Virus record (IMG/VR): IMGVR_UViG_3300003690_000009
Span: 1 to 58,155 of that record
Reading direction: 5' to 3' (one strand)
Source: a virus
Taxonomy: Duplodnaviria > Caudoviricetes
DNA: 58,155 bases
Below, in pieces: positions 1,386-55,086 of the stretch (position 1 is its first letter; each line of letters starts with the position of its first letter). The translations under genes were made by a program, and so were the position numbers. The notes beneath the pieces are model-generated. The model searched no databases. It saw nothing but the letters and a program-made list of their open reading frames with translations, and was not told where the DNA came from.

Positions 1386-1985
1386 TCAGCCGCCCTGGTC
1401 GACGTCACCCTCGCCTGGGCCAACCTCGGTGGATACCTCGGCCAGGAGCATGTTGGCACGCTCGACCCGGTCAAGCTGATCGTTGGACATCCCGGCAAGC
1501 TGTGCCGGGCTGAAGGCGTGCAGGTGCAGGTGCTGCTCCGGCATCAGCCGCTTGAGCAGCAGGTCAAGTGCCCTCGTCTTGTCCCACGTCCGGATGCGGG
1601 ACACGGTGGCGGCCCCGTCGACCACGGCCACGTCCACGCTGGCGACACTGGCGGCCACGTCGTCCGGCAAGTCGACCAGGTCGACCAGGCGCTGTTGCCC
1701 CGAGGCACCCCTGGTGAAGAGGCGGCGGAGGTCCGAGAAGGCGATCACCTTCAGTTCGTTGAGCACATCCTCAACCCGGAGGTCGAGGTTGTCGAGGTGG
1801 CGGCGGTGGACCCGTTGGATCTCGACCTGGACCTTAGCATGTTGCAGGAGCCGAGATCCTGTGACGGCCGCGACGCCGTTGTCCTTCCCGGCCGTGTAGC
1901 CTGCCCTGATCGCCGCCTGGGTCGCGTTGAGGTCAAGCACGTACTCCGAACAGAACCGCCGCTGTTTTTCGTTGAGGTAGGCCAT
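1386..1985 (-). CDS. terS: Terminase small subunit
   Basis: N-terminus LNEKQRRFCSEYVLDLNATQAAIRAGY is the classic Terminase_2 HTH signature; later DKTRALDLL. Confidence 0.93.
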   Translation of the reverse strand: MAYLNEKQRRFCSEYVLDLNATQAAIRAGYTAGKDNGVAAVTGSRLLQHAKVQVEIQRVHRRHLDNLDLRVEDVLNELKVIAFSDLRRLFTRGASGQQRLVDLVDLPDDVAASVASVDVAVVDGAATVSRIRTWDKTRALDLLLKRLMPEQHLHLHAFSPAQLAGMSNDQLDRVERANMLLAEVSTEVGPGEGDVDQGG

Positions 1986-2052
1986 CCGAAGAGCCTAGCA
2001 CACCCCGCAAGTGACTGTCGAAACAGGGGTTATCATGACGTGACTTTAGGGC

Positions 2053-2082
2053 TTGACAACATGGCGTGACTTCCCCTAGAGT
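2053..2082 (+). promoter_or_regulatory. Sigma70-type early promoter
   Basis: TTGACA (2053-2058), 18 nt, TAGAGT (2077-2082); divergent from terS and upstream of the plus-strand gene cluster. Confidence 0.7.
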
Positions 2083-2089
2083 ATACACA

Positions 2090-2131
2090 GCCGTGAGGTC
2101 ACGTTGGCTCATGGCGTTGGTCTTTGACAAA
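2090..2131 (+). promoter_or_regulatory. Hairpin plus boxA-like antitermination site
   Basis: Stem GCCGTGAG/CTCATGGC followed by TGGTCTTTGACA, compared with the rrn boxA consensus TGCTCTTTAACA. Confidence 0.55.
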
Positions 2132-2600
2132 CGGCGGGCAGGAGTAGCACGGGGCAGTCCCTGGCAGCGACCACCGAGGAAGCGCGACGCGGGACGCGCA
2201 GAAGGTGCCACACGAACCCCAGCCCGACGATACGGAGCCGCAACCCGCGACGGGACCGCACGACCCGTCACGCGGACCGAAGGAGGTGTCCTCAGTCACC
2301 CCCTGGCAGTGACCGCCGAGACCGGCGGGTCTGGCCGGGAGATGACCAGGAGCCCAGCTGATCACTTCGGACCCCGCAGCGGAGAACCCTGCCGACCCCC
2401 TGGAGGTGCCAGTAATGGCCCTGACCGAGGGTGGCAGACAAGCGAGCGCAGGACTGCAGAGCAGACCTCGACCCAACCGGTGCCACCGTGGCAGCCGCTC
2501 GGTCGAGTGAGGCGGAGGGGCAGTCATCCGGGCAGCGACCCGGAGAGCCAAACCAGGGCCACCACGGCCAGGGGGGCGACGACGCGCATCGTGAGGCTAG
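2132..2600 (+). ncRNA. Large structured leader RNA of unknown class
   Basis: No credible ORF. Nested helices include GTCACCCCCTGGC (2295-2307) with GCCAGGGGGGCGAC (2567-2580), CTGCCGACCC/GGGTGGCAG, CTCGACC/GGTCGAG and CCGCGACGGG/CCCGTCACGCGG. Confidence 0.55.
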
Positions 2601-2602
2601 CA

Positions 2603-2660
2603 CTTGGTACTAGAAACACTGCTGTGTTGTGCGATTTAACGCACCTGACGAGGTACCGAG
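2603..2660 (+). ncRNA. Hammerhead ribozyme, type II
   Basis: GAAA (2613-2616), stem III CAC/GTG, GUU cleavage triplet, stem I GTGCG/CGCAC, CTGACGA (2645-2651), stem II GGTACCGAG pairing with CTTGGTACT. One extra A precedes GAAA. Confidence 0.8.
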
Positions 2661-2663
2661 ATC

Positions 2664-2996
2664 ATGACCATCACACCGCATGTCATTCTCTACAGCATAC
2701 TGATCAAGACCGCCGACCATCTGCCCGACGCGCGGCAGGCCGTCGCGGAGGCGATCAAGAGCCTGGACGTTGTCCAGGGCGACGGCTACCGGGACGACGG
2801 CGTCTCGACGGACGTCGAGATCGTGAGCGTGTCCTGCGTCATCGACACGCCAGCGCAGCGCGCCCAGGCGGCCGTGCGGGCCTCGCAACCCGGCAAGTCG
2901 ACCCGGCGTGTCCAGGACAGGCTAGTGGTGATCGGTGTGCCCAAAAAGCGCGCGGAGGCGATCAAGCGGCAGATCCTCTCTGCCGTCGAGCGGTGA
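2664..2996 (+). CDS. Early hypothetical protein
   Basis: 110-aa ORF; SD-like GAGGT lies inside the hammerhead. Confidence 0.7.
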   Translation: MTITPHVILYSILIKTADHLPDARQAVAEAIKSLDVVQGDGYRDDGVSTDVEIVSVSCVIDTPAQRAQAAVRASQPGKSTRRVQDRLVVIGVPKKRAEAIKRQILSAVER

Positions 2997-3110
2997 GGAG
3001 TACGGGAGGGGGCGCTGGCCCCTTCCCACCTCTACCGGAGCGCCTGACGGCGTTGCGGCAGGGGTTCAAGGATGGGGGCAGCGAACGCCCCAGAGACAGG
3101 AGATCAGACG

Positions 3111-3326
3111 ATGAAGTATCAGACACCAGCCACCCACGGCGACAAGTGGGACAGTCAGCCGCTGTTCGACACATCGGCACTCACCCCGGAGCAGGTGGCC
3201 GGGCTCAAGGCGGTACGAGCGGAAGCGGATCGCGTGTGGGAAGCAGCGTTTGGGAAGGACGAGTCCTACATTCCCCCGCCTGCGCCGTGGGACAACGACC
3301 AGGACGGTATCACCCGGGAAGTCTGA
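3111..3326 (+). CDS. Small acidic early protein
   Basis: ATG at 3111 after AGGAGA; its stop TGA overlaps twister 1. Confidence 0.7.
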   Translation: MKYQTPATHGDKWDSQPLFDTSALTPEQVAGLKAVRAEADRVWEAAFGKDESYIPPPAPWDNDQDGITREV

Positions 3327-3381
3327 GAGGCGCGGGCTCCGGCCCGCGTTAAAGGGTAGGACCGGTCTCAAGCCCCGGTCC
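3323..3381 (+). ncRNA. Twister-like ribozyme 1 (circularly permuted, type-P5-like)
   Basis: CU-GA-GAGG, P1 hairpin, U-UAA-AG, then P4 with loop UCUC-AA-GCC; T1 is UCUC/GAGG; predicted cut 3350/3351. Confidence 0.85.
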
Positions 3382-3409
3382 ACCGTCAACCATTCACCAG
3401 GAGGCACAG

Positions 3410-3631
3410 ATGAAGACGTCAGCGTATCAACTCGTGATGTTCGGGGTGTATGGGTGCTTGATGTTGGGCGGCGTGATCACGGCCAGCGTCGCCCTGGAGG
3501 CGGCAGCGGTCCAGACGGCGTCCGAAGGCGTGATCGTCGCCCTGGCGCTCGCGGGGTTCCTGGAGTTTTTCGTCGGCGTCGTCGGCGTGATCGTCTTCGT
3601 CGACCCCCGGCACGACCGGAGGGTTCAATGA
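3410..3631 (+). CDS. Small membrane protein (2 TM)
   Basis: AGGAGG RBS; two hydrophobic stretches. Confidence 0.75.
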   Translation: MKTSAYQLVMFGVYGCLMLGGVITASVALEAAAVQTASEGVIVALALAGFLEFFVGVVGVIVFVDPRHDRRVQ

Positions 3632-3915
3632 GGGCGTACCGACCGCTGCCGAAGGACGCAGTGCTGACCCTGGTCAGGCGCGCCGCCATCGCCGCCCTGG
3701 CCCCACCGCCACCTTCCATCGTGAAGGCGGCACGGGACGACGGCGTCTCGACGCAAGTGTACGAGGACGCCATCGACCAGCGGGTCCAGCGCATGGAGAG
3801 GGCACTGGAGCGAATCGCGGCACTGACCCATGCTCGCCTGTTCGACGGCGAGACACTGCTGCTGGTCCCGGAGTTCTGGCGGGAGTGGCGCGGAGGCTAC
3901 CACGAGGAAGTGTGA
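3628..3915 (+). CDS. Early hypothetical protein
   Basis: ATGA overlap with the upstream stop; MRAYRPLPKD...; its stop overlaps twister 2. Confidence 0.7.
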   Translation: MRAYRPLPKDAVLTLVRRAAIAALAPPPPSIVKAARDDGVSTQVYEDAIDQRVQRMERALERIAALTHARLFDGETLLLVPEFWREWRGGYHEEV

Positions 3916-3968
3916 GGGCACGGCCACCGGGCCGTGTAAACGGTGCGACCGGTCCCAAGCCCCGGTCG
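3912..3968 (+). ncRNA. Twister-like ribozyme 2
   Basis: GU-GA-GGG, P1 CACGGCC/GGCCGTG, UAA-AC, P4 loop UCCC-AA-GCC; predicted cut 3937/3938. Confidence 0.85.
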
Positions 3969-3998
3969 ACGTTCACCCATTCACCCAGGAGGCAAGAC

Positions 3999-4376
3999 AT
4001 GACAGACGTCAAGACGGCGATCGACTCTACCAGCCTGTGGGACTATGACGACCCCATCGCAGGTGCGGTCACCGACTCGCACCCGGAGGGCTACGACATC
4101 CCCAACTGGATCGACCAGGAGATCACCGGCACCACCGTTGCCGCCATCCGCCAGGGCGGCTGCGCCTCTGGCGCCTACATGGACGCCGTGACCTACTACG
4201 ACGCCCGCCGGACGATGGACGGACACGGGGACGCCGTATTGGAGTACATCGAGTGCGCCATGGGCGAGATTCCGCAGCCGAAAGACGGTGAAAGCTGGAG
4301 CGGGTTTGCGGTGTTTTATCTGTCCATGGCCGTTGAATTGTGGGCGGCAACAGAGTTTGACGACTGGGACCGGTGA
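3999..4376 (+). CDS. Acidic early protein (GGCASG..YY family; possible DNA mimic)
   Basis: AGGAGG RBS; D/E-rich 125 aa; motif IRQGGCASGAYMDAVTYY resembles conserved phage early proteins. Confidence 0.7.
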   Translation: MTDVKTAIDSTSLWDYDDPIAGAVTDSHPEGYDIPNWIDQEITGTTVAAIRQGGCASGAYMDAVTYYDARRTMDGHGDAVLEYIECAMGEIPQPKDGESWSGFAVFYLSMAVELWAATEFDDWDR

Positions 4377-4379
4377 CGT

Positions 4380-4439
4380 GTGATGGGACGGGGCCGCAGT
4401 GGCCCCGTTTAAGCGGTAAAGCCGGTCCAAAGCCCCGGC
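4380..4439 (+). ncRNA. Twister-like ribozyme 3
   Basis: GA-UGGG pairs with loop UCCA (compensatory change); predicted cut 4410/4411. Confidence 0.85.
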
Positions 4440-4466
4440 CGACGTTCCTCTCACCTGGAGGTAGAC

Positions 4467-5054
4467 ATGACGAAGAAAGATCCCACCCGCGATGACTGGC
4501 TCGCCCGCGCCGTGACGGCGCTGCGGCCACTGTTCGCGGCGGCCGGACACCCCATCGGCGCGCAGCTGATCCGTGTGTCGGTCGGGTTCCCATCGAAGCG
4601 CGCGATGGCGGGCAAGTGTCAGCGCATCGGTGAGTGCTGGGACCGCGCCGACGACGACGGGGTGCCGCAGTTGTATATCTCGCCTGTGCTCGATGAGCCC
4701 GTGCGCGTCCTGGACGTCCTGCTGCACGAACTCGTCCACGCGGCGGTGGGCAACAAAGCCGGGCACAAAGGCCCGTTTCGGAAGGCAGCGATCGCCCTGG
4801 GTCTCACCGGCAAAATGACTGCTACCGTGGCCGGGGACGCCCTCGCGCTCACGCTCACGGCGATGGCTAAGACGCTGGGGCCGTTTCCCCACGCGGCCCT
4901 GGACCCGTCGCAGGGACGGCCCAAGCAGTCGACGAGGATGCTCAAAGCGGAGTGCCTGACGGACGCCTACATCGTGAGGCTGTCCCGGAAGATGATTGAG
5001 GAACACGGGTGTCCCGTGTGCCCGACCTGCCAGGAGCAGATGACCGAGGCGTAG
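4467..5054 (+). CDS. SprT-like zinc metalloprotease-domain protein
   Basis: HELVH zincin motif followed by GHKGPF; C-terminal Cys cluster CPVCPTC. Confidence 0.8.
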   Translation: MTKKDPTRDDWLARAVTALRPLFAAAGHPIGAQLIRVSVGFPSKRAMAGKCQRIGECWDRADDDGVPQLYISPVLDEPVRVLDVLLHELVHAAVGNKAGHKGPFRKAAIALGLTGKMTATVAGDALALTLTAMAKTLGPFPHAALDPSQGRPKQSTRMLKAECLTDAYIVRLSRKMIEEHGCPVCPTCQEQMTEA

Positions 5055-5055
5055 G

Positions 5056-5114
5056 GTGAGGGCACGGGCTCCTGGCCCGTGTAAACGGTGCGGACCGGTC
5101 CCAAGCCCCGGTCC
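5056..5114 (+). ncRNA. Twister-like ribozyme 4
   Basis: GU-GA-GGG, P1, UAA-AC, P4 GGACCGG/CCGGTCC with loop UCCCAAGCC; predicted cut 5082/5083. Confidence 0.85.
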
Positions 5115-5128
5115 AGAAAGGGTAGAGA

Positions 5129-5350
5129 ATGAGTAGAGCTTTAGCGATTATGCAGCGGGGAGGTATCAACGCCGTGCAGAAACGCATCGAACTCCTGGAC
5201 TCCGAGCCGGGTGCGTGGGGCCATGAACCCCAAGACTGCGAATATGGGCACTTCGACTGTAGCTGTAGCCCCGGAGGGGCCTGCAACGACGAACTGATGG
5301 GCCTTGTGAACCGGTCCCAAGCCCCGGTCCAGAAAGGTAGGAGAGCATGA
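5129..5350 (+). CDS. Small Cys/His-rich protein
   Basis: DCEYGHFDCSCSPGGACND; bracketed by 28-bp direct repeats. Confidence 0.65.
   Translation: MSRALAIMQRGGINAVQKRIELLDSEPGAWGHEPQDCEYGHFDCSCSPGGACNDELMGLVNRSQAPVQKGRRA
5310..5337 (+). repeat. Partial twister copy (P4 hairpin only), exact 28-bp repeat of 5094-5121
   Basis: ACCGGTCCCAAGCCCCGGTCCAGAAAGG occurs at both sites. Confidence 0.9.
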
Positions 5351-5646
5351 TCTTTAGACTGAGCAGTGACACGGCGGTGGTGCCCGTCCGGGTGAACCTG
5401 AGCCTGGAGCAGCAGGTGCTATTGCTGCGGATCATCACACGCTATCACCGCCCCCCGCGCGGAGAACACTACCCGCTGGTCAACGACCCGCAACAACATC
5501 GGCGCGATGGAACGACGGCATCGGCCCTGGGCCGCAAGGGGCTGGTGGTCTGGAACCGCCCGGCCAAGACGGCGACCCCCACCATGGAGGGGTTCTGGTT
5601 GGGCGACGCACTCCGCATCGAGGCACGGCGGCGTGAGGCCGAGTAG
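5347..5646 (+). CDS. Early hypothetical protein (possible winged helix)
   Basis: AGGAGAG RBS; TTASALGRKGLV...PTMEG pattern. Confidence 0.65.
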   Translation: MIFRLSSDTAVVPVRVNLSLEQQVLLLRIITRYHRPPRGEHYPLVNDPQQHRRDGTTASALGRKGLVVWNRPAKTATPTMEGFWLGDALRIEARRREAE

Positions 5647-5648
5647 AT

Positions 5649-5710
5649 CCTGAGAGGCACGGGGGAATCGCCCCCGTGTGAAAGGGCCGTCCAGGTCTCA
5701 AGCCCTGGGC
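5649..5710 (+). ncRNA. Twister-like ribozyme 5
   Basis: CCU-GA-GAGG, P1, U-GAA-AGG-GC, loop UCUC-AA-GC; predicted cut 5680/5681. Confidence 0.85.
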
Positions 5711-5745
5711 ACCGTCAACCGTCCACCATCCTCCGAAGGAGAGAC

Positions 5746-6078
5746 ATGGCCGAATATCGAATCACCGGCACGTACATCGGCAGGGACGCACGACCACTCC
5801 GCAAGGCGCTAGGTAATCTCGGCGTCAACGCACGGGTCCAGAAGGTGGACCGCCACCCATCGCGGGCCAGCCGATTCTCGGAAGCGCTCGACCGCATCCG
5901 GCACGGCCAGGAAGACCTCGTGGAACTACGCGACGAGCTTCAAACATGGCGCGACAACCTCCCGGAGAACCTGGAGGACGGCCAGAAAGCCGAACAATTG
6001 GACACGGCGATTGACCAGCTGACCGAATTTGAGGAGATCGAGGTCGACGTCGACGTCGACTTTCCGACCATGTTCTAA
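5746..6078 (+). CDS. Conserved phage early protein with acidic helical C-terminus
   Basis: AAGGAGAG RBS; LRDELQTWRDNLPENLE motif. Confidence 0.75.
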   Translation: MAEYRITGTYIGRDARPLRKALGNLGVNARVQKVDRHPSRASRFSEALDRIRHGQEDLVELRDELQTWRDNLPENLEDGQKAEQLDTAIDQLTEFEEIEVDVDVDFPTMF

Positions 6079-6080
6079 GT

Positions 6081-6141
6081 GGCGATGGGCGCGGGCCTTC
6101 GGGCTCGCGTGAAGCCCCCAGCGCCGGTCCAAAGGCCGGGC
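6081..6141 (+). ncRNA. Twister-like ribozyme 6
   Basis: GGC-GA-UGGG, P1 with cUUCGg loop, GAA-GCC-CC, loop UCCA-AA-GG. T1, T2 and P2 all covary; predicted cut 6111/6112. Confidence 0.85.
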
Positions 6142-6168
6142 ACAGTGAGGCAGGGAGAGAGGACAACA

Positions 6169-6372
6169 ATGCTGCAAGTGACATTCCAGCAGGACGGCAA
6201 GGTGCAGGTTTTTGCGATGCAGGACGGGGACGTGGTCAGCGTGACGACAGACGCCAATCGCCTGCCGACTATGCTGCCAGCCGAGACAGCCGAGATATTG
6301 TGCGGTGCCGTGGCTGAACTACACGAGACGCTCTCGGCAGTGATGCCACGGACGCTCAAAATCGTGTCCTGA
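6169..6372 (+). CDS. Small early protein
   Basis: ATG at 6169 after GAGAGGA; 67 aa. Confidence 0.65.
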   Translation: MLQVTFQQDGKVQVFAMQDGDVVSVTTDANRLPTMLPAETAEILCGAVAELHETLSAVMPRTLKIVS

Positions 6373-6406
6373 GAGGTCCGGGGCGTTCACCTGGAGGGGG
6401 AGACAG

Positions 6407-6589
6407 ATGAAACAGAAAACGTGCGAGGTATGTGAGGTCGGGTATACGTCCGGGTGTACCAACTCCCGGTGCATGGAATGCCACGACAAATACTGTACGC
6501 CGGGCGGGGCCACGTCCCCCGGACACTACCCCGGACACCCACCGACATCTCGCTTGTGGCCGAGATCGGTGCAACCAGAGAAGGCATAG
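6407..6589 (+). CDS. Small zinc-finger-like protein
   Basis: GGAGG RBS; CEVC...CMECH. Confidence 0.65.
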   Translation: MKQKTCEVCEVGYTSGCTNSRCMECHDKYCTPGGATSPGHYPGHPPTSRLWPRSVQPEKA

Positions 6590-6593
6590 GGTG

Positions 6594-6830
6594 ATGGAGA
6601 TGCAAGACGATGAACGTGACTACGACGAGGATCGGCGGATGCCGGACGGCACCACCTTCGCCACTCCCGGCTCGGCGTTGCGCTCGGCCACGGCCCGCAA
6701 CCCACGCAACCTGCCATGCCCCACCTGCGGGCAGGCGAACCGGCTGACGCCAGCGGATCGCCGGGCGGGGTATCAGTGCGACACCTGCGCTGACCGCGCG
6801 GAAGGTGTCTACATGGGCGGCGACTACTGA
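6594..6830 (+). CDS. Zinc-ribbon protein
   Basis: SALRSATARNPRNLPCPTC...GYQCDTCAD, two CxxC pairs. Confidence 0.75.
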   Translation: MEMQDDERDYDEDRRMPDGTTFATPGSALRSATARNPRNLPCPTCGQANRLTPADRRAGYQCDTCADRAEGVYMGGDY

Positions 6831-6840
6831 CGGCAAGATA

Positions 6841-6900
6841 GGGCGATGGCACGGGCTCCGGCCCGTGTAAACCCGCTACGACCCGGTCCACAGTCCGGGC
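6841..6900 (+). ncRNA. Twister-like ribozyme 7
   Basis: GGGC-GA-UGG, P1, UAA-ACCC-GC, loop UCCA-CA-GU; predicted cut 6868/6869. Confidence 0.75.
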
Positions 6901-6941
6901 GATGTTCACAGACAGGCGGGACAACCACGAAAGGGGGCGCT

Positions 6942-8951
6942 ATGACGCTCAGGTTCGACCCAGCCGTCGCCCAGTATATCTGGGACGGAGGCTACACCAA
7001 CCGACACCTGCCGAAAGGGGCTGGGATGCGCTGGAACCCGGCGCTGCGGCACTGGTGGACGGATTCCGACGAGAGGGCCGCAAAGCTGATCGAGTTTGCG
7101 GACCCGGCCACGGCGGCTCGGCTCCGGCCTAACGCCACGGCACACGCGGACGCGCTCACGGCCTCGCGGGCCAGCAGCGCCGACGTCACGATCTCTGCCC
7201 CGGACGGCTACACCTACCGGGACTTCCAGCTAGCGGGGATCACGTTCGCCCTCAACCGCGATGCCACGCTGATCGCGGATGAGATGGGGCTTGGGAAAAC
7301 GATCCAGGCAATCGGCCTGATCAACGCGGACCCAACCATCACGCGGTGCCTGATCATCTGCCCGGCGAGCCTCCGGCTCAACTGGGAACGCGAACTGCAA
7401 CGGTGGCTGACCCGGAAGTTGTCGATCGGGATCGCCACCACCAAGGATTGGCCCGACACCGATATCGTGATCGTGAATTACGATATCGCCTGGCGCGCTG
7501 GCGTCGCCGGTCCGATCAACGCCGAGACGTGGGATCTGGTCTGCCTGGACGAGAGCCACTACGTCAAAAACCCCGACGCGAAGCGCACCCGCGCGATCGT
7601 CGGGCAGCCCCGGTCCAAGCGGGGCGGCGCAGCGCACCCCGGCATCCGGGCTCGGCGCAAGCTGGCCCTGACCGGTACGCCGATCACCAATCGCCCGAAG
7701 GAACTGTTCAGCACGTTGCACTGGCTCGCACCCACGGCGTGGCCGAATTTCTTCGGCTTCGCCAAGCGGTACTGCAACGCGCACAAAATTTCGATTGGGC
7801 GCGGTCGGACAGCCTGGGACGTCGGCGGGGCCAGCCACCTGGACGAACTCCAGGACCGGCTTCGCAGCACGATCATGGTGCGCCGACTGAAGGCCGACGT
7901 ACTGACGGAACTACCCGCCAAGGTGCGGCAGGTGATCGAAGTGCCCGCCAACGGGGCTTCGTCTGTCGTCAAAGCAGAGCGGGACGCCTGGGCGGTGCAG
8001 GAGCGGACACTGGGTCCACTCCGGGCGCAGGTGGAGCGGGCCAAGGGCGGGACAGAAGCGGAGTACCGGGACGCGGTGCAGCGGCTCACCGCAGCGGAGA
8101 ACATTGCGTTCTCCGAAATGTCAGCCGCACGGCACGATACGGCCGTCGCGAAAATCCCGGCCGTCCTGGCCCACATAGTCGACGCCCTGGAGGCGTCCGA
8201 CGACGCGAAGGTTGTGGTCATGGCGCACCATCACGATGTGGTGGACGCCTTGCTCGACGGCCTGACCGGACAACTCACGACCGAGGGGCCATACCACCCG
8301 GTCTCGCTGACCGGGCGCACCCCGCTGGCCGACCGGCAGGCAGCGGTCGACCGGTTCCAGGATGACCCGGAGTGTCGGGTATTTGTCGGGTCAATCACGG
8401 CAGCGGGCGTGGGAATCACACTGACGGCATCGTCCCATGTCGTTTTCGCGGAACTCGACTGGGTGCCCGGCAACGTCAGCCAAGCCGAGGATCGGTGCCA
8501 TCGCATCGGACAGCAGGATTCGGTCCTGGTGCAGCATCTCGTGATTGACGGGACGCTGGACGCGCGCATGGCGCACACGATCGTCAAGAAGCAGAAGGTC
8601 ATCGACGCGGCACTCGACACCAAGCCGACGCCCACCGTCCTGGTGGCAGAGTCGCCCAAAAAGCAGCAGGTCGCCCTCCAGGCGGACCGGCTACTCCCCG
8701 AGGACGTCGCGGCAATTCATGCCGCCTTGCAACGGCTCTCGGGGATGTGCGACGGCGCGCGCCACCTGGACAGCGCGGGCTTCAATAAGCACGACACCGA
8801 CATCGGCAAGTCGCTGGGGAACGTCCAGGCACTCACGGCCAAGCAGGCCGTGCTGGGGTTGCGAATCGTCCGGAAGTACCGCCGACAGCTGGACTCGGCC
8901 ATGGTGGACGCACTGACGGCGGCGGCGGATCGCATCAGGAAGGAGGGGTGA
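6942..8951 (+). CDS. SNF2-family (HARP/SMARCAL1-like) helicase/translocase
   Basis: ADEMGLGKT Walker A, DESH, LTGTP, GVGITLT and QAEDRCHRIGQ motifs; ATG 6942 follows GGGGG. Confidence 0.93.
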   Translation: MTLRFDPAVAQYIWDGGYTNRHLPKGAGMRWNPALRHWWTDSDERAAKLIEFADPATAARLRPNATAHADALTASRASSADVTISAPDGYTYRDFQLAGITFALNRDATLIADEMGLGKTIQAIGLINADPTITRCLIICPASLRLNWERELQRWLTRKLSIGIATTKDWPDTDIVIVNYDIAWRAGVAGPINAETWDLVCLDESHYVKNPDAKRTRAIVGQPRSKRGGAAHPGIRARRKLALTGTPITNRPKELFSTLHWLAPTAWPNFFGFAKRYCNAHKISIGRGRTAWDVGGASHLDELQDRLRSTIMVRRLKADVLTELPAKVRQVIEVPANGASSVVKAERDAWAVQERTLGPLRAQVERAKGGTEAEYRDAVQRLTAAENIAFSEMSAARHDTAVAKIPAVLAHIVDALEASDDAKVVVMAHHHDVVDALLDGLTGQLTTEGPYHPVSLTGRTPLADRQAAVDRFQDDPECRVFVGSITAAGVGITLTASSHVVFAELDWVPGNVSQAEDRCHRIGQQDSVLVQHLVIDGTLDARMAHTIVKKQKVIDAALDTKPTPTVLVAESPKKQQVALQADRLLPEDVAAIHAALQRLSGMCDGARHLDSAGFNKHDTDIGKSLGNVQALTAKQAVLGLRIVRKYRRQLDSAMVDALTAAADRIRKEG

Positions 8952-9004
8952 GGGACGGGGCCAGTGGCCCCGGTAAACCACAACGTCCGGTCCCAAGTCC
9001 GGAC
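8947..9004 (+). ncRNA. Twister-like ribozyme 8
   Basis: GGU-GA-GGGA, P1, UAA-ACC-AC, loop UCCC-AA-GU (T2 is AC/GU); overlaps the helicase stop; predicted cut 8974/8975. Confidence 0.88.
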
Positions 9005-9027
9005 ACAACCACAGAGAGGGGGCACAC

Positions 9028-9375
9028 ATGCCCAAGGTCGAATTGTTCAGGTTGTCGGTGCAGGGCCACATTGACTGGCAGAACCTGCTGGACGCCGTGT
9101 CCGAGACCATCGACTTCAGCCACCTGGAGCAGTTGAACCGGGCGGTGGTCACACGGATGCGCGCGCTACGAGGCGTCGAAGAGTCCACCGCTGCCCTGGG
9201 GTTCACGTTGGGACAGCAAGTGGAATTCACGGGCAAGCGGGGCATCCACCGAGGGACGGTCATCAAGGTGAACCGCAAGAGTATCAGTGTCAAGGAGACG
9301 TCCGGTCCACGGTGGAATGTCTCCCCGACGTTGTTGCGGCCGGTCCGCGCAGCGATCGATCATGTGAAGGCATGA
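9028..9375 (+). CDS. Early hypothetical protein with SH3-like C-terminus
   Basis: GAGGGGG RBS; GQQVEF...GTVIKVNRKSISV...WNVSPTLL. Confidence 0.7.
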   Translation: MPKVELFRLSVQGHIDWQNLLDAVSETIDFSHLEQLNRAVVTRMRALRGVEESTAALGFTLGQQVEFTGKRGIHRGTVIKVNRKSISVKETSGPRWNVSPTLLRPVRAAIDHVKA

Positions 9376-9435
9376 GGTGAGGGGTGCGGCCACTGTGGCC
9401 GCATTAAACCACAACGTCCGGTCCCAAGTCCGGAC
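9376..9435 (+). ncRNA. Twister-like ribozyme 9
   Basis: Same core as copy 8, with an identical 3' half; predicted cut 9405/9406. Confidence 0.88.
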
Positions 9436-9450
9436 AGAAAGGATGGCAGA

Positions 9451-9759
9451 ATGCCACCACATCCAGTCAGAAAGGACACGCTGGACAGGCAGATTGACTG
9501 GCTCAACAGCGCGTCCGGTGGAGACTACAGTCTCGACTGGGCCAACGGCGGAGTCCAGATCGCCTGCGCGGGCGGGTCGCACATCGTCTCCCCGCGACGG
9601 GGGACCAAGCGCGAGGTCGACGCTCAACTGCGGGTCATGGTCGAGGCGGTCAGACGCTACAAGGCCCGCATGGCGCATGTGGTGATGCGCTGCGACACCT
9701 ACGGGAAGGTCGGCCGCACGGTCGAACGGATCGTGGTACCCGAGGAGGACTGGCGATGA
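9451..9759 (+). CDS. Early hypothetical protein
   Basis: AAAGGA RBS; 102 aa. Confidence 0.7.
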   Translation: MPPHPVRKDTLDRQIDWLNSASGGDYSLDWANGGVQIACAGGSHIVSPRRGTKREVDAQLRVMVEAVRRYKARMAHVVMRCDTYGKVGRTVERIVVPEEDWR

Positions 9760-10031
9760 GTAATCACTGGGTCATCACGGCAGATCACGTCGCAGCACCG
9801 GGTGCGAAGCCGCGCACCAACAGCAACGCGGTCGGCGTCGCCTCGCGGGGCTACCTCGACGGCGAGACGCTGCCGGTGGAGTTCCGCGCATACGACGGGG
9901 ACGGGGAGTTGTACTACGAGGGGCGGATGCAGGAGGAAGACTTCCACCCCATGGACGACTTCTGCCGACCGAACGCCGGGTGTGTCGAACTCCGATATCG
10001 CCGGGGCACCGGCTCCTGGAAGATACTCTGA
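9756..10031 (+). CDS. Conserved phage hypothetical protein
   Basis: ATGA coupling; FRAYDGDGELYYEG motif. Confidence 0.75.
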   Translation: MSNHWVITADHVAAPGAKPRTNSNAVGVASRGYLDGETLPVEFRAYDGDGELYYEGRMQEEDFHPMDDFCRPNAGCVELRYRRGTGSWKIL

Positions 10032-10091
10032 GGTGAGGGGTGCGGCCCCCGTGGCCGCATTAACCCGCAACGCCTGGTCCCAAGTCCAGGC
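10032..10091 (+). ncRNA. Twister-like ribozyme 10
   Basis: GGU-GA-GGG, P1, UAA-CCC-GC, P4 GCCTGG/CCAGGC, loop UCCCAAGU; predicted cut 10061/10062. Confidence 0.8.
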
Positions 10092-10181
10092 AGGATCTTA
10101 TGCAGGGAGGTGCCATTTCTGGCCTTCCAGGTGCCATTTCGGGCCTTTCAGGAGGATCTTTCGTTTCTTTCGCAAGTTTGT

Positions 10182-10367
10182 GGGGGGGTAGCACAGACCG
10201 ATGTGCGCTTCAGCAGGCGACAACCGGACAGACGGGGGTTGATCACTTCCGCGCTGCCGGGCGTCGCCCCTGACACCAGCGAGCCTTACAGGGTGATCAC
10301 CTGGCCGGTTTCGTGGGGTGGAGGGCTGACGCCCTCAGAGACGCTGGATCAATCCCCAGCCCCCCTC
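10182..10367 (+). ncRNA. tRNA-shaped RNA with the anticodon loop replaced by two hairpins
   Basis: G7/CCCCCTC acceptor, TA, D arm GCAC/GTGC, stem CTTCA/TGGAG, variable arm, T-like arm GCTGG/CCAGC. A 106-nt insert holds two NUGAUCA loops. Confidence 0.55.
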
Positions 10368-10454
10368 TTCCCAAACCTACAGCCAGAGCGTTTACACGCG
10401 ACGCGAGGCGCTACACCTAATCCGCGCACAATTACCTACCGCGCCTGCCAGGGC

Positions 10455-10523
10455 ACTGAACCTACGGCCACCGGATCGACTGAACCTACGGCCACCGGAA
10501 TGCACAGACTGAACCTACGGCCA
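10455..10523 (+). repeat. Three direct repeats of ACTGAACCTACGGCCA
   Basis: Copies at 10455, 10479 and 10508, just upstream of a promoter. Confidence 0.9.
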
Positions 10524-10538
10524 GCAAACCAGACGTGA

Positions 10539-10567
10539 TTGCACGGTCTTGACACGTATGCTATACT
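10539..10567 (+). promoter_or_regulatory. Sigma70-type promoter with extended -10
   Basis: TTGCAC, 17 nt, TATACT preceded by TGn; an overlapping TTGACA lies at 10549. Confidence 0.65.
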
Positions 10568-10630
10568 GCTTAGTAGACGTGAAGTCCAGAATGGCACTCA
10601 CGATGAGACGAACGAGAACGAGGGGGAGCG

Positions 10631-10843
10631 ATGTTGCACTGGCTCAGATTTAGCGTCAGCGTGGGGGACCGTGGAAACATCCACACGGTGCCAGTGATGG
10701 CGCGCGCCTCCGAGAACGACTCCGACTACAGCGGCGCGCACCCGGCCGTCGTGCAGCGGGCCACCCAGCGACTCCTGGACCGCTACGCGGGGGAGTCCGA
10801 CGTGACGATCGAATTCACCAGGGAGGTCTACCCCTACAGATGA
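10631..10843 (+). CDS. Hypothetical protein
   Basis: GGGGGAG RBS; 70 aa. Confidence 0.6.
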   Translation: MLHWLRFSVSVGDRGNIHTVPVMARASENDSDYSGAHPAVVQRATQRLLDRYAGESDVTIEFTREVYPYR

Positions 10844-11130
10844 GTAAAGTGAAGCGGGCTTGCATGGTGTGTGGACGGATGATCTCCGTGAAGTATGCCA
10901 TCCAGAACAACGGTGGTGGCAAGCAACGTGTGCGACATCTGTGTCCACATGGGGTGGTGTGCATTACTGGAGTCGGTCCTACGTATGGCACAAGCTCGAC
11001 CGGTGCGCCACCAATCGCCGGACCAAATTCCTGCAAAGAATGTGGACGCAGGAAATTCCTGGAACTTCACGGAATGTCCGGGAACTTCCCGGAGATTCCC
11101 GCTGAAGAGAAGAGAAAAGAACTGAACTGA
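10840..11130 (+). CDS. Cys-rich hypothetical protein ending in iteron-like sequence
   Basis: ATGA coupling; CMVC, HLCPH and CKEC. Confidence 0.6.
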   Translation: MSKVKRACMVCGRMISVKYAIQNNGGGKQRVRHLCPHGVVCITGVGPTYGTSSTGAPPIAGPNSCKECGRRKFLELHGMSGNFPEIPAEEKRKELN

Positions 11131-11137
11131 AACTGAA
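11051..11137. repeat. Degenerate third block of the 10-bp iteron-like repeat plus purine tract
   Basis: TTCCTGGAAC TTCACGGAAT GTCCGGGAAC TTCCCGGAGA, then GAAGAGAAGAGAAAAGAACTGAACTGAAACTGAA. Confidence 0.6.
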
Positions 11138-11168
11138 GCGTCAGGTAGACTGGCGGCAGGAGAACGAC

Positions 11169-11510
11169 ATGGCGAAGAAAAAGAGATCCAAGAAGATAGT
11201 CCTGTTCAAGACGCCTGAAGAGGTGGCCGAGCACTTGGCCTCGTTGGACGGGGAGTCGGACTACGAGACCGAAGCACGGGTCGCGGGTCAGATTGCGCGT
11301 CTCGGGGCACGTCTGATCAAGAGCATCAAGGCGGAGGAACTGAAGAACCCGCGCATGTGCGCGCTATCCTGCGGGCTGGTCTCGATGTTTCTCTTACGAC
11401 TCGCAGATGTGCCGGAAGACGAGCACGAGGATTTCTTTGTGCTCTTGATGAAAGAATACAAGGAACTCGACAAGTGGATGTTCGACACCGAGAGCGGCAC
11501 CGTCCACTAG
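11169..11510 (+). CDS. Hypothetical protein
   Basis: AGGAGA RBS; its stop overlaps the convergent gene stop (CTAG). Confidence 0.7.
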   Translation: MAKKKRSKKIVLFKTPEEVAEHLASLDGESDYETEARVAGQIARLGARLIKSIKAEELKNPRMCALSCGLVSMFLLRLADVPEDEHEDFFVLLMKEYKELDKWMFDTESGTVH

Positions 11511-11710
11511 CCCGTCAAGCGGGCAATCTGGAGGGAAAGCACACGGTCGAGCACTGTCCGGACCTCGGCCAGCGCCATGCGGTACTCTTCCGCCTCCCGG
11601 CGCGAGGCCGTCAGGGCCGTCAGAATCCGATCCCGGTCCGCCTGGACGTCCTCCAGGGCACGTTCCACGCCACGTAGCTGGAGGGCCGTGTCCCGCGTGT
11701 CGATGTCCAT
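11507..11710 (-). CDS. Small coiled-coil protein
   Basis: Heptad pattern; abuts the upstream gene. Confidence 0.6.
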   Translation of the reverse strand: MDIDTRDTALQLRGVERALEDVQADRDRILTALTASRREAEEYRMALAEVRTVLDRVLSLQIARLTG

Positions 11711-12709
11711 CTAGCCCTGCCCTCCAGACGTATCCTCGTACGCGTTGTAGCGGTCCATCCGGACGTCCCAGGTGGATTGATGCCGCGCCACCTCGAAATA
11801 CCTGAACGCCCCATCCCCCATATAGTGCCTGACCCGCCCCGCGATGCCCGGCAGATCCACATCGCTCCACGGGTATTCAAACGCCCAGAAGGCCGCGCCG
11901 TCATTGGGGTCTGGATGGTCCGCTGTCACCTCATCGAGGCGTGGCTGGTAGAGCAGTCCAAAGGTGAGCCCCCGGTCTCGCCCTTCGCGCCACAATGTGT
12001 GGTCGTCAGTGTCATGTGGCCCGGCGCCTGCCCACCATCCGGGTCGAAAGTGGAGATCCAGCGGGGTCGTGGGAGCCAGGTCACGCAGCACCGAGAGAAA
12101 ATCCAGCAACTTCCAGCAGTCGCCCGACCACCCCCACTCGATGCCGTCTGCGCCCGCATAGCCCGCGCCCCGCGTGGGGTCCGGGAACTCCCACCCCGTA
12201 CAGATAAAATCCGCGTTCGTGCGCGGGATGATGTATTCCGCCCAGGCCACCGACTCGCCGTAGCTCATGGGACTGTCGCCCCGGTTGGTGATCAGCATGT
12301 GCAGCCAGCGCATCCCGTCCTGATGTAGCTCGTCCTCAAAGCGGAGTGCGAGGTCGAGGGCAGCTTCCTTCGTAGTCGGCAATCCATTCCCTCCCGGCAT
12401 CACACAAAACGGGAGGTCGGTATAGCCACCCGCGAGGTATGCCGCCCGGAACCGGGCACGCTTCTCGTCATCCCACCTGTAGTAAAACAACCCACAATCA
12501 GCGTCCCGATCGTCGGCCATTTCCCAGTCCGGACCGAAGGCCAGGAAGTTTGCGTTGAGCGTCCCGCGCCCGCGCACCACTTCCACGACGTTCGTCACGA
12601 CGTCAGCCATGACTTCCGGCGACGGCACGATATACACAGGGACTGGCCGCACCGGCTCAGTCTTCCCCCCAAACAGCGACACCAGCCAGCGAAAGAATCG
12701 TGTGATCAT
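11711..12709 (-). CDS. Hypothetical protein, possibly glycoside-hydrolase-like barrel
   Basis: 332 aa, rich in aromatic and acidic residues, GWE motif. The fold is a guess. Confidence 0.55.
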   Translation of the reverse strand: MITRFFRWLVSLFGGKTEPVRPVPVYIVPSPEVMADVVTNVVEVVRGRGTLNANFLAFGPDWEMADDRDADCGLFYYRWDDEKRARFRAAYLAGGYTDLPFCVMPGGNGLPTTKEAALDLALRFEDELHQDGMRWLHMLITNRGDSPMSYGESVAWAEYIIPRTNADFICTGWEFPDPTRGAGYAGADGIEWGWSGDCWKLLDFLSVLRDLAPTTPLDLHFRPGWWAGAGPHDTDDHTLWREGRDRGLTFGLLYQPRLDEVTADHPDPNDGAAFWAFEYPWSDVDLPGIAGRVRHYMGDGAFRYFEVARHQSTWDVRMDRYNAYEDTSGGQG

Positions 12710-54807: not shown

Positions 54808-55086
54808 CTATCCGTTTACACGGTCTGCGCGGGGAAAGCGACCGTGCGCGCGCTCCCGCAACAACGCAAACGCGCGTTGATAATCCGGCTGCGTGAAGCC
54901 GTGTCCCGTCCACTTCTCCTGCGCCACGCGCATGAACTCGTCTTCGCCGCCCGCGATGATCGCCAGGAGCATCGGGTCGTCAAGCTGAATCATCAACGTC
55001 TCGACAGCGGCCGTGAGAAAATGATCCTTCTCGGTGATACCCGGCGGCAGATGAATGTCCTGCTCTGAGGCTTTGAACAGTGCCAT
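54808..55086 (-). CDS. Hypothetical protein
   Basis: ATG overlaps the stop of the terL C-terminal ORF; MALFKASEQD... Confidence 0.6.
   Translation of the reverse strand: MALFKASEQDIHLPPGITEKDHFLTAAVETLMIQLDDPMLLAIIAGGEDEFMRVAQEKWTGHGFTQPDYQRAFALLRERAHGRFPRADRVNG

What the first reader, a model, noticed from the sequence alone, without database searches (positions are those of the whole stretch)
3323..10091. Early operon punctuated by ten twister-like self-cleaving ribozymes
Seen: ten copies of [P2']-GA-[T1']-P1 hairpin-N/AA-[P2]-[T2]-P4(T1-AA-T2'), each overlapping or just after a stop codon; nine precede the next RBS and the tenth precedes the tRNA-shaped RNA. Compensatory changes across copies support the pseudoknots: T1 UCCC/GGG(R), UCUC/GAGG, UCCA/UGGG; T2 GGU/GCC, GC/GC, CC/GG, AC/GU; P2 CU/AG, GU/AC, GGC/GCC, GGU/ACC. 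Established: CCGG-UCCCAAGC-CCGG, GA and the N/AA site form the twister core, and this order is the P5-type permutation. In three copies the stop codon UGA supplies the GA containing the catalytic G. Inference: the polycistron cuts itself into one- to three-gene mRNAs with 5'-OH and hairpin-protected ends, a protein-free analogue of T7 early RNase III processing. Caveat: P2 is only 2-3 bp and no P5 stem is evident, so this is a minimal variant.
Basis: partly seen in the sequence, partly recalled or inferred. Interest (0 to 1): 0.95.

Follow-up and report, generated by a model that had tools for sequence, protein, structure and literature searches.

The report
Ten twister ribozymes punctuating a phage operon
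One operon of an uncultivated marine phage carries ten copies of a known self-cutting RNA (the twister ribozyme) between its genes, probably so that one long transcript chops itself into separate, hairpin-capped messages.

Summary
Rfam's Twister-P5 model (RF02684) finds exactly ten matches in the 58 kb window. All lie on the + strand between 3322 and 10089. Nine exceed the curated cut-off and the tenth scores 37.0 against 37.6 bits. Both pseudoknots, which the models do not score, are complementary. Over 39 copies from six viral records all 18 pairs covary, and 0 of 500 shuffles reach the observed values. Each copy sits at or just after a stop codon, and nine precede a Shine-Dalgarno and start codon.

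The likely function is self-cleavage of one polycistronic RNA into one- to three-gene mRNAs. Each upstream product would end in the P1 hairpin and each downstream product would begin near the P4 hairpin. This is inference: no RNA data exist.

The idea is not new. Clustered hammerheads flanking prophage genes were given the same reading in 2011. New here: such arrays recur in many uncultivated phages (up to 12 copies) but were absent from the cellular stretches tested, and they seem to bound variable gene cassettes. "Early" is unproven, and no tRNA follows the tenth copy.

The parts
3322..3378 (+). Twister-P5 copy 1. Cut predicted after 3350 (U/AA). T1 GAG/CUC. The stop UGA of ORF 3072-3326 supplies the U of P2' and the invariant GA.
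   Evidence: Rfam 45.6 bits; alignment read-out; stop overlap
3911..3965 (+). Twister-P5 copy 2. Cut after 3937. T1 GGG/CCC. The stop UGA of ORF 3628-3915 overlaps the GA.
   Evidence: Rfam 46.0 bits
4379..4438 (+). Twister-P5 copy 3. Cut after 4410. T1 UGG/CCA.
   Evidence: Rfam 41.3 bits
5055..5111 (+). Twister-P5 copy 4. Cut after 5082. Starts directly after the stop of the SprT-like gene 4467-5054.
   Evidence: Rfam 40.5 bits
5305..5344 (+). Half copy: P4 hairpin plus leader plus Shine-Dalgarno only, 88% identical to 5089-5128 of copy 4. It has no P1 and no cleavage site. It lies inside the 3' end of ORF 5129-5350 and in front of ORF 5347-5646.
   Evidence: the repeat finder families D4 and D8; no model hit with filters off
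5649..5707 (+). Twister-P5 copy 5. Cut after 5680 (G/AA). T1 GAG/CUC.
   Evidence: Rfam 42.9 bits
6081..6139 (+). Twister-P5 copy 6. Cut after 6111 (G/AA). T1 UGG/CCA, T2 CC/GG.
   Evidence: Rfam 40.4 bits
6842..6898 (+). Twister-P5 copy 7, the weakest. Cut after 6868. The P4 loop reads CA where the other nine read AA. It precedes the SNF2 helicase gene 6942-8951.
   Evidence: Rfam 37.0 bits against a cut-off of 37.6, E 4e-4; own model 39.7 bits
8947..9002 (+). Twister-P5 copy 8. Cut after 8974. The stop UGA of the helicase gene overlaps the GA.
   Evidence: Rfam 56.5 bits
9376..9433 (+). Twister-P5 copy 9. Cut after 9405.
   Evidence: Rfam 56.3 bits
10032..10089 (+). Twister-P5 copy 10. Cut after 10061. 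It follows the last ORF of the series (9756-10031) and precedes about 540 nt without a convincing gene.
   Evidence: Rfam 44.9 bits
2664..10031 (+). Run of 16 same-strand ORFs that the ribozymes punctuate. Most are small proteins of unknown function. They include a SprT-like protein (4467-5054) and an SNF2 helicase (6942-8951). The six junctions without a ribozyme comprise three ATGA overlaps, one 4-nt gap and two gaps of 75 and 34 nt.
   Evidence: Third-position GC gene calls; Pfam and PHROGs; blastn annotation
2053..2082 (+). The only sigma-70-like promoter match on the + strand in 1800-11800 (TTGACA, 18 nt, TAGAGT). It faces a divergent match on the - strand. A consensus match only.
   Evidence: 2 sites found against 1.7 expected by chance, so weak

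Best explanation
The ten elements are genuine type-P5 twister ribozymes built into the junctions of one + strand phage operon.

The proposed mechanism runs as follows.
1. As RNA polymerase passes a junction it transcribes, in order, P2', the catalytic G-A, T1', the P1 hairpin, the N/AA cleavage site, P2, T2 and finally the P4 hairpin. The P4 loop pairs back to T1' and T2.
2. Only then is the active site complete, and the RNA cuts itself between N and A.
3. Because of the P5 permutation the cut falls in the middle of the element. The upstream message keeps its stop codon and ends, 22-38 nt later, flush with the G+C-rich P1 hairpin and a 2',3'-cyclic phosphate. The downstream message starts with a 5'-OH and the P4 hairpin about 10 nt in, followed by a short leader, a Shine-Dalgarno and the start codon.
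4. After the cut only P2 and T1 (3 bp each) hold the halves together, so they should part.

The operon would thus resolve into about ten mono- to tricistronic mRNAs. Their stability and translation would no longer depend on their neighbours.

Shown: family membership, fold, conserved core, geometry, and recurrence in other phages. Inferred: cleavage in vivo, one long primary transcript, stabilisation by the end structures, and 'early' timing.
For: Family and fold:
- Ten Rfam RF02684 matches, nine over the curated cut-off. None occurs elsewhere in the 58 kb, on either strand, with filters off.
- Core residues: GA 10 of 10, A1-A2 10 of 10, loop U 10 of 10, loop AA 9 of 10.
- Covariation on 39 distinct copies from six viral records: 97.8% of cells paired against 66.7% in shuffles. 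All 18 pairs change on both sides, and 0 of 500 shuffles reach the observed values. Sliding the partner by 1-3 columns drops pairing to 25-48%. T1 is paired in 100% of cells and T2 in 98.7%, although neither was in the model that made the alignment.

Geometry:
- The stop codon ends between 12 nt before and 4 nt inside each ribozyme. The next start lies 17-43 nt after P4 in nine copies.
- The same stop, ribozyme, leader, Shine-Dalgarno, ATG layout appears in the 29 copies from five other viral records examined.
- The predicted 3' ends fold into hairpins of -14.8 to -18.7 kcal/mol, flush with or 1-2 nt from the cut.

Transcription unit: no terminator-like site and no promoter-like site on the + strand between the genes.

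Conservation:
- Arrays sit beside homologous genes in distant phages. These are the SprT-like gene (35% identity) in G001, ORF 5746-6078 (35%) in G003, and the helicase (49%) and ORF 9756-10031 (44%) in G005.
- Of 100 IMG/VR stretches that hold the P4 motif, 47 have at least one hit and 11 have three or more, up to 12. Hits within a stretch always lie on one strand.
- Of 100 stretches from cellular genomes with the same motif, only 2 gave weak partial hits.

Literature:
- Tandem hammerheads in prophages cleave as expected during in vitro transcription of about 2 kb native RNAs (PMC3088659, passages read).
- P1 and P2 imperfections barely affect twister cleavage in a test of 1,948 natural twisters (PMC11662667, passages read).
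Against: - No RNA evidence of any kind: no listed sequencing run that holds the stretch is RNA.
- Copy 7 is below Rfam's cut-off and has C for one of the two conserved loop adenines. Changes at one unpaired L4 adenine lowered the mean cleaved fraction from 0.76 to 0.42 in the high-throughput test. I could not map its numbering onto copy 7 with certainty.
- Eleven phage contigs whose helicase is 47-55% identical have no twister and no other Rfam family. The array is therefore dispensable for this gene set.
- The promoter scan covers sigma-70-type sites only and the host is unknown, so internal promoters cannot be excluded.
- Copies within one record are related: for 38 of 39 the nearest copy lies in the same record. 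The covariation counts therefore overstate the number of independent events.
- That 5'-OH, cyclic-phosphate and hairpin ends stabilise the products is recalled textbook reasoning, not tested here.
Confidence: 0.75

Rival explanations
1. The ribozymes cleave, but their purpose is to limit expression, not to stabilise it. Cutting would detach each cistron from the protective 5'-triphosphate end and from translational coupling. It would start decay and so time the shut-off of this gene set, as the glmS ribozyme triggers decay of its mRNA.
For: The only well-understood bacterial case, glmS, works by cleavage followed by RNase degradation (review PMC6765202, section 13 read). Reporter constructs with twisters in the 3' UTR change expression (same section). 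Nothing here measures stability.
Against: Both product ends carry hairpins placed exactly at the cut. A stereotyped leader and Shine-Dalgarno follow each copy, which looks built for use of the downstream product. No ligand-binding domain is present: the whole element is the 58-nt core.
Confidence: 0.12
2. The repeat unit (ribozyme plus leader plus Shine-Dalgarno) is mainly a recombination or mobility module. It spreads with promoter-less gene cassettes, or mediates their exchange by homologous recombination. The ribozyme activity would be incidental or merely tolerated.
For: - Contigs of related strains from other studies join across whole gene blocks with breakpoints at or beside ribozyme copies: 3383 to 3985, 3965 to 4466, 5087 to 5718 and 8946 to 9376.
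- A half copy sits at 5305-5344.
- For 38 of 39 copies the nearest copy lies in the same record, and mean identity within arrays is 0.65-0.94 against 0.60 between arrays.
- Helicase relatives lack the array altogether.
Against: - Pure recombination sites would not need intact pseudoknots or catalytic residues, yet all 18 pairs covary and the core is invariant.
- All copies face the direction of transcription.
- No integrase or transposase was found among the 16 operon ORFs scanned against Pfam or the 10 of them scanned against PHROGs.
- Each joint rests on one contig of depth 2.5-10, and some have short flanks of 28-30 nt.

This reading can be true alongside the main one.
Confidence: 0.1
3. 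The elements are structured RNA or DNA signals that do not cleave, such as terminators, attenuators, protein-binding sites or host RNase III sites, and only resemble twisters.
For: Activity is untested. Some natural twisters with no predicted imperfection cleaved poorly in the high-throughput assay (PMC11662667, passage read).
Against: - No T-run follows P1, and no + strand terminator-like site was found.
- The P1 stems are 7-10 bp, which is short for RNase III (recalled knowledge).
- Conservation falls exactly on the catalytic G, A1, A2 and the two pseudoknots. A hairpin signal would not need these.
Confidence: 0.03

Closest known systems
Type-P5 twister ribozyme (Rfam RF02684; class described by Roth et al. 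2014, a paper I could not read: not held)
   Same: Same order of elements: P2', GA, T1', P1 hairpin, N/AA, P2, T2, P4 loop. Same conserved core and same two pseudoknots. Nine of ten copies pass the curated score.
   Different: All ten lack the A-U pair at model positions 4 and 33, so P2 is 3 bp at most. The same holds for the 29 copies from other viral records. Two copies have G, not U, 5' of the cut. Copy 7 has CA for AA in the loop.
Clustered hammerhead ribozymes flanking genes in prophages (Perreault et al. 2011, PMC3088659; passages read)
   Same: Several self-cleaving ribozymes on one strand flank single genes or short gene blocks of a phage. [quoted passage not shown] They showed cleavage of three tandem arrangements in vitro and of one arrangement in E. 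coli.
   Different: A different ribozyme class. Here the array is much denser and longer: ten in 6.8 kb, against arrangements of about three in the cases described in the passages I read. Here there is also a stereotyped unit of stop codon, ribozyme, leader and Shine-Dalgarno, and the cut falls in the middle of the element so that each product gets a hairpin.
RNase III processing of phage T7 early mRNA (recalled textbook knowledge; no call)
   Same: One long early transcript is cut between cistrons, and the products end in stable hairpins. It works alike in outcome.
   Different: T7 relies on a host protein enzyme and long imperfect duplexes. Here the RNA would cut itself, leaving a 5'-OH and a 2',3'-cyclic phosphate, with 7-10 bp stems. 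Not a member.
Synthetic ribozyme insulators such as RiboJ placed before cistrons (recalled; no call)
   Same: A self-cleaving ribozyme plus hairpin upstream of a ribosome-binding site removes upstream RNA context, so that each gene's expression becomes independent of its neighbours.
   Different: Those parts are engineered from a hammerhead. This would be a natural, repeated twister counterpart.
Repeated regulatory cassettes that mediate modular gene shuffling in T4-type phages, and integron attC cassette arrays (both recalled; no call)
   Same: Arrays of small promoter-less genes are separated by one repeated structured element. There are hints that blocks between repeats are gained or lost.
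   Different: No integrase lies next to the array. The repeat is an RNA enzyme with RNA-level covariation, not a DNA recombination site or a promoter.

Membership tests
Twister-P5 ribozyme (Rfam RF02684) | Covariance-model score at or above the curated gathering score (37.6 bits) | tested here: met
   Nine of ten copies score 40.4-56.5 bits. Copy 7 scores 37.0 bits, E 4e-4, just below the cut-off.
Twister-P5 ribozyme (Rfam RF02684) | Helices P1, P2 and P4 supported by compensatory change | tested here: met
   P2 is paired in 96.6% of cells, P1 in 99.1% and P4 in 94.8%. Every pair changes on both sides. 39 distinct copies were counted. Most P4 misses are rows with one extra loop C that the model put out of register.
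Twister-P5 ribozyme (Rfam RF02684) | Double pseudoknot T1 and T2 between the P4 loop and the strands next to P1 and P2 | tested here: met
   T1 is complementary in 10 of 10 window copies, with three different triplet pairs. T2 is complementary in 10 of 10 in my model's alignment and 9 of 10 in Rfam's. Over 39 copies T1 is paired in 100% of cells and T2 in 98.7%. Neither pseudoknot was modelled.
Twister-P5 ribozyme (Rfam RF02684) | Conserved catalytic nucleotides: the G of the GA (general base), and A1 (general acid) and A2 after the scissile bond | tested here: met
   GA is present in 10 of 10 and AA after the cut in 10 of 10. The roles of these residues are taken from PMC11662667 (passages read).
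Twister-P5 ribozyme (Rfam RF02684) | Circular permutation with the ends at P5 (P1 closed by a loop) | tested here: met
   All ten align end to end (model positions 1-58) with the P5-type model and with no other twister type.
Twister-P5 ribozyme (Rfam RF02684) | A P5 stem closing the element (optional in the class) | tested here: not met
   The flanks of the same copy pair no better than the flanks of different copies: -9.8 against -9.1 +/- 3.3 kcal/mol. Rfam's 58-position model has no P5 either, and the review calls P5 optional (PMC5408937, passage read). This does not bar membership.
Twister-P5 ribozyme (Rfam RF02684) | Site-specific self-cleavage | not testable with these tools
   Needs in vitro transcription or RNA-end sequencing. 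No RNA run holds the stretch.
Ribozyme clusters that process phage polycistronic RNA (as proposed for hammerheads, PMC3088659) | Several ribozymes on the coding strand flanking single genes or short gene blocks of a phage | tested here: met
   Ten of ten lie on the + strand at cistron junctions. The fragments between cuts are 431-2106 nt. The phage nature of the record is shown.
Ribozyme clusters that process phage polycistronic RNA (as proposed for hammerheads, PMC3088659) | One primary transcript spanning the array | tested here: inconclusive
   No + strand promoter-like or terminator-like site lies between the genes. The scan covers only sigma-70 and intrinsic-terminator consensus, and the host is unknown.
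Integron-like cassette array | An integrase next to the array and attC-type recombination sites | tested here: not met
   No integrase or recombinase family was found among the 16 operon ORFs in Pfam or the 10 of them scanned in PHROGs. The repeat is a twister by RNA covariation. attC motifs were not searched for specifically.

The most novel reading that the evidence does not exclude
Twister-P5 arrays may be a general building principle of a set of uncultivated phages, so far undescribed. A portable unit would delimit promoter-less gene cassettes. The unit runs: stop codon, ribozyme, G-poor leader, Shine-Dalgarno. It would do two jobs. At the RNA level it would cut every cassette out as its own hairpin-capped mRNA, and only the P5 permutation gives a hairpin to both products. 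At the DNA level the repeated unit would be the crossover point for swapping cassettes between strains. This would be a ribozyme-based counterpart of integron cassette arrays, and a natural version of synthetic ribozyme insulators.
Probability: 0.3. Interest if true: 0.8.

Novelty: new variant of a known kind. Interest (0 to 1): 0.62.

Why it matters
What self-cleaving ribozymes do in bacteria and phages has been open since clustered hammerheads were reported in 2011. Reviews of 2019 and 2023 still call the reason for their clustering near phage genes unknown (PMC6765202, section 13 read; PMC10085705, passage read).

This operon is an unusually clean natural case. Nearly every non-overlapping gene junction carries one copy of the same ribozyme in the same register to the stop and start codons. 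The same design recurs in many phage contigs.

It turns a vague idea into a precise, cheap test: ten predicted cuts and defined product ends. It also gives a reason why this particular permutation of the twister is used. If confirmed, it shows that phages can organise expression of a multi-gene operon without a host RNase. It would also supply natural insulator parts for synthetic operons.

Tried and rejected
- **RNA evidence.** The look-up of sequencing runs listed 20 holders of window:3300-10100 and none is on record as RNA: 'no RNA holder listed'. The one read-laying run therefore went to DNA contigs of related strains. Its variant table shows only 40 of 327 differences, too few for a test of selection on the ribozymes, so I made none.
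- **P5 stem.** Searched for and not found.
- **tRNA or other known RNA after copy 10.** ARAGORN found 0 and Rfam found nothing at E<=1. The fold of 10062-10300 is no more stable than shuffles (z -1.0).
- **Close isolate relatives.**
  - blastn of 3100-10900 against 50,697 phage records hit only the SprT-like and helicase genes, at 65-70% identity.
  - blastn of copy 8 gave only chance-level hits at E>=1. blastn is a poor tool for a 56-nt structured RNA, so this does not show absence.
- **Named hosts.** The P4-motif scan of genome contigs gave 120 stretches. All 80 stretches listed in the output had a single match. Of the 100 stretches I scanned, only 2 gave weak partial model hits. No host clue came from this.
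- **Other ribozyme classes in helicase relatives.** None of 11 loci had any Rfam family.
- **Other twister types.** Of the viral stretches with the P4 motif and no P5 hit, I scanned 15. One had a single twister-P1, one had a hammerhead II, and 13 had no ribozyme family.
- **Papers.**
  - Roth 2014 (PMC3867598) and Weinberg 2015 (PMC4509812) are not held. Their statements on type P5 and gene context are known to me only through reviews, and their supplements may list such arrays.
  - Seven full-text searches found no paper describing arrays of twister ribozymes in phage operons. The library lacks most subscription journals, and supplements were not opened.

Full report
**What is there.** The window is a whole IMG/VR virus record of 58,155 bases, classed linear and about 87% complete. 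It is a tailed phage, with the following genes:
- a small terminase subunit, and a large terminase in two ORFs;
- portal, scaffold, major head and head-closure proteins;
- tail-spike-like proteins and a 4,682-aa virion-module ORF;
- DnaB, ERF and a PD-(D/E)XK nuclease.

All of these lie on the - strand. The only long + strand block runs from about 2660 to 11510, between two - strand blocks. From 2664 to 10031 it holds 16 ORFs with the high third-position G+C typical of coding sequence in this genome. Most are small and of unknown function. They include a SprT-like protein and an SNF2 helicase.

- Rfam's Twister-P5 model finds nine matches over its curated cut-off. A tenth scores 37.0 against 37.6 bits (E 4e-4).
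- All ten are on the + strand between 3322 and 10089. Nothing else in the window matches a ribozyme family at E<=1.
- A model of my own, run with filters off over both strands, again finds exactly ten.

**The fold is real.** Rfam's model scores only the nested helices, so the two pseudoknots are an independent check.
- In Rfam's own alignment the three T1 positions are complementary in 10 of 10 copies, through three different triplets: GGG/CCC, GAG/CUC and UGG/CCA. T2 is complementary in 9 of 10.
- I then collected 29 further copies from five other viral records. I built a model from P1, P2 and P4 only, realigned everything and counted pairs with T1 and T2 added.
- Result: 97.8% of 696 cells are paired, against 66.7% in shuffles. 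All 18 pairs show changes on both sides, and 0 of 500 shuffles reach any observed measure. Sliding the 3' partner by one to three columns drops pairing to 25-48%. T1 is paired in 100% of cells and T2 in 98.7%.
- In this alignment copy 7 also keeps T2 (GC/GU).
- Caveat: copies inside one record are kin. For 38 of 39 the nearest copy lies in the same record, so cells are not independent events. The six records do have different consensus sequences.
- The catalytic G-A and the A-A after the cut are invariant in the window. Their roles as general base and general acid are taken from passages of PMC11662667.
- No P5 stem exists. P5 is optional in the class (PMC5408937, passage read).
- P2 is 3 bp in all 39 copies. 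In a test of 1,948 natural twisters, P2 length and imperfections had little effect on cleavage (PMC11662667, passage read).

**Geometry.**
- Each copy begins within a few bases of a stop codon. In copies 1, 2 and 8 the UGA itself provides the last base of P2' and the G-A.
- Nine copies are followed, 17-43 nt after P4, by a start codon with a Shine-Dalgarno. The tenth is followed by about 540 nt without a convincing gene.
- The six junctions without a ribozyme are three ATGA overlaps, one 4-nt gap and two gaps of 75 and 34 nt. The predicted products therefore hold one to three genes, and the fragments between cuts are 431-2106 nt.
- The predicted 3' UTRs are 22-38 nt and end flush with the P1 hairpin (-14.8 to -18.7 kcal/mol). 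The 5' UTRs are 45-73 nt, with the P4 hairpin about 10 nt from the new 5' end.
- On the + strand there is one sigma-70-like promoter match, at 2053-2082. There are no terminator-like sites between 1800 and 11800. This is weak evidence for one transcription unit.

**How it most likely works.** The inference is co-transcriptional self-cleavage at each junction. The P5 permutation matters here. The active site is complete only once the P4 loop is made, and the cut falls in the middle of the element. So the upstream mRNA keeps its stop codon and gains a terminal hairpin with a cyclic phosphate. The downstream mRNA gains a 5'-OH, a hairpin and an intact leader. A P1- or P3-type twister would leave nearly the whole element on one side. 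That hairpins, 5'-OH and cyclic phosphate protect against exonucleases and 5'-end-dependent RNases is recalled knowledge, not tested here.

**Recurrence elsewhere.**
- In the first 100 of them my model found 105 matches in 47 stretches. Fourteen stretches had two or more matches and eleven had three or more: 12, 11, 7, 7, 6, 5, 4, 4, 4, 3 and 3. Two of these stretches look like the same phage. Matches always lay on one strand within a stretch.
- Whole-record Rfam scans gave 11 matches in a 100%-complete 38.8 kb record, and 7, 6, 3 and 2 in four others.
- In the 29 copies from those five records the stop, ribozyme, leader, Shine-Dalgarno, ATG layout recurs. The leaders are record-specific and mostly G-poor, with 3-8% G in three of the records.
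- Homologues of four window genes lie in three of those arrays, at 35-49% identity. A twister precedes the helicase and another follows the ORF 9756-10031 homologue, as in the window.
- As a control, 100 stretches of cellular genomes with the same motif gave only two weak partial hits.
- Of 15 viral stretches without a P5 hit, one had a single twister-P1 and one a hammerhead II. Every array seen was of the P5 type.

**Results against a universal need.** Eleven phage contigs with a helicase 47-55% identical to the window's have no twister and no Rfam family at all. One of them has instead a repeated promoter-like motif before its genes. This suggests that separate promoters are an alternative solution, but I did not test that.

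**Cassette hint.** Contigs of related strains from other studies skip whole blocks, with breakpoints at ribozyme units:
- after copy 1 to after copy 2;
- the end of copy 2 to the SprT start, with a different leader between;
- inside copy 4 to after copy 5, with a different P4 hairpin between;
- the start of copy 8 to the start of copy 9.

Each joint rests on one contig of depth 2.5-10, and some have short flanks. Together with the half copy at 5305-5344 and the within-record similarity, this suggests that the repeat unit also marks cassette boundaries. The evidence is thin.

**What is known.**
- Twister-P5 is a catalogued family.
- Perreault et al. 2011 reported multiple hammerheads flanking genes or short gene blocks in prophages. 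[quoted passage not shown]
- The 2019 review says processing of polycistronic transcripts by bacterial hammerheads and twisters 'has been suggested' and needs more work (PMC6765202, section 13 read).
- A 2023 paper states that the reason for ribozyme clustering near phage genes is still unknown (PMC10085705, passage read).
- Seven full-text searches found no description of twister arrays in phage operons. I could not read Roth 2014 or Weinberg 2015, or any supplements.

**Verdict.** The finding is real, and the ribozymes are ordinary members of a known family. The proposed function is an existing hypothesis, for which this operon is an exceptionally regular example. What goes beyond print, as far as I could search, is:
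- the scale and regularity of the array;
- its recurrence in many uncultivated phages and near-absence from the cellular stretches tested;
- the rationale for the P5 permutation;
- the hint that the units bound variable cassettes.

Confidence that these are true twister folds is about 0.97. Confidence that they cleave and serve mRNA processing is about 0.75. Interest: 0.62.

Noticed in passing
window 5305-5344: A half ribozyme: P4 hairpin, leader and Shine-Dalgarno, 88% identical to the 3' half of copy 4. It has no P1 and no cleavage site. It lies inside the end of ORF 5129-5350 and before ORF 5347-5646. It looks like a relic of recombination or duplication within a ribozyme unit.
   Followed up: partly
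window 6370-6406: The ribozyme-free junction after ORF 6169-6372 begins with UGA-GAGG, as copies 1 and 5 do. It ends with a leader resembling those after copies 2 and 3 (CGTTCACCTGGAGG). It may be the scar of a deleted ribozyme core. This was read by eye only, and no model hit was found there.
   Followed up: no
window 3383-9376 (joints seen in runs X3 and X5): DNA contigs of related strains skip 429-630 nt gene blocks with breakpoints at ribozyme units: 3383 to 3985, 3965 to 4466, 5087 to 5718 and 8946 to 9376. Further joints run 6373 to 6813 and 4474 to 4887. Each rests on one contig.
   Followed up: partly
window 2404-2424, 10108-10128, 10129-10149: A partly palindromic motif (AGGTGCCA, 4-5 nt, TGGCC) occurs once upstream of the first + strand ORF and twice in tandem just after the tenth ribozyme. 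It could be an operator-like protein-binding site bracketing the operon (family D9).
   Followed up: no
window 10455-10528: Three tandem copies of a 21-nt repeat, 24 and 29 nt apart, lie in the gene-poor stretch after the operon. They look like iterons or operators (family D6). ARAGORN and Rfam find no tRNA or known RNA in 10090-10630.
   Followed up: partly
window 27923-41971 (- strand): A single 4,682-aa ORF in the virion module. Residues 390-721 match the N-terminal parts of giant-protein PHROGs, one of them annotated virion RNA polymerase (E 2.5e-10). DUF7178 matches at about 1577-1709. No polymerase domain as such was detected.
   Followed up: partly
window 55086-55826 and 55986-56774 (- strand): The large terminase is split into two ORFs, with the N-terminal ATPase part and the C-terminal nuclease part about 160 nt apart. 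The cause was not examined. It could be a frameshift, an intervening element or an assembly error.
   Followed up: no
L253 4668-4800, 6133-6162, 13782-13811: A phage contig with a helicase 47% identical to the window's, and no ribozyme, carries a repeated promoter-like 30-mer (TGCTTGAC ... CGCTACA). One copy sits about 100 nt upstream of the helicase gene. This may be an alternative, multi-promoter solution.
   Followed up: no
L125 4018-4080 (G001:25017-25079): A twelfth, degenerate copy in the 11-copy array of another phage. P1 and the cleavage site are intact but the P4 loop is lost (33.8 bits). Arrays therefore also contain decaying members.
   Followed up: no
window 16858-17706 (- strand): An ORF matching a PHROG annotated transposase (E 1.4e-53) lies among the replication genes, far from the ribozyme array.
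   Followed up: no
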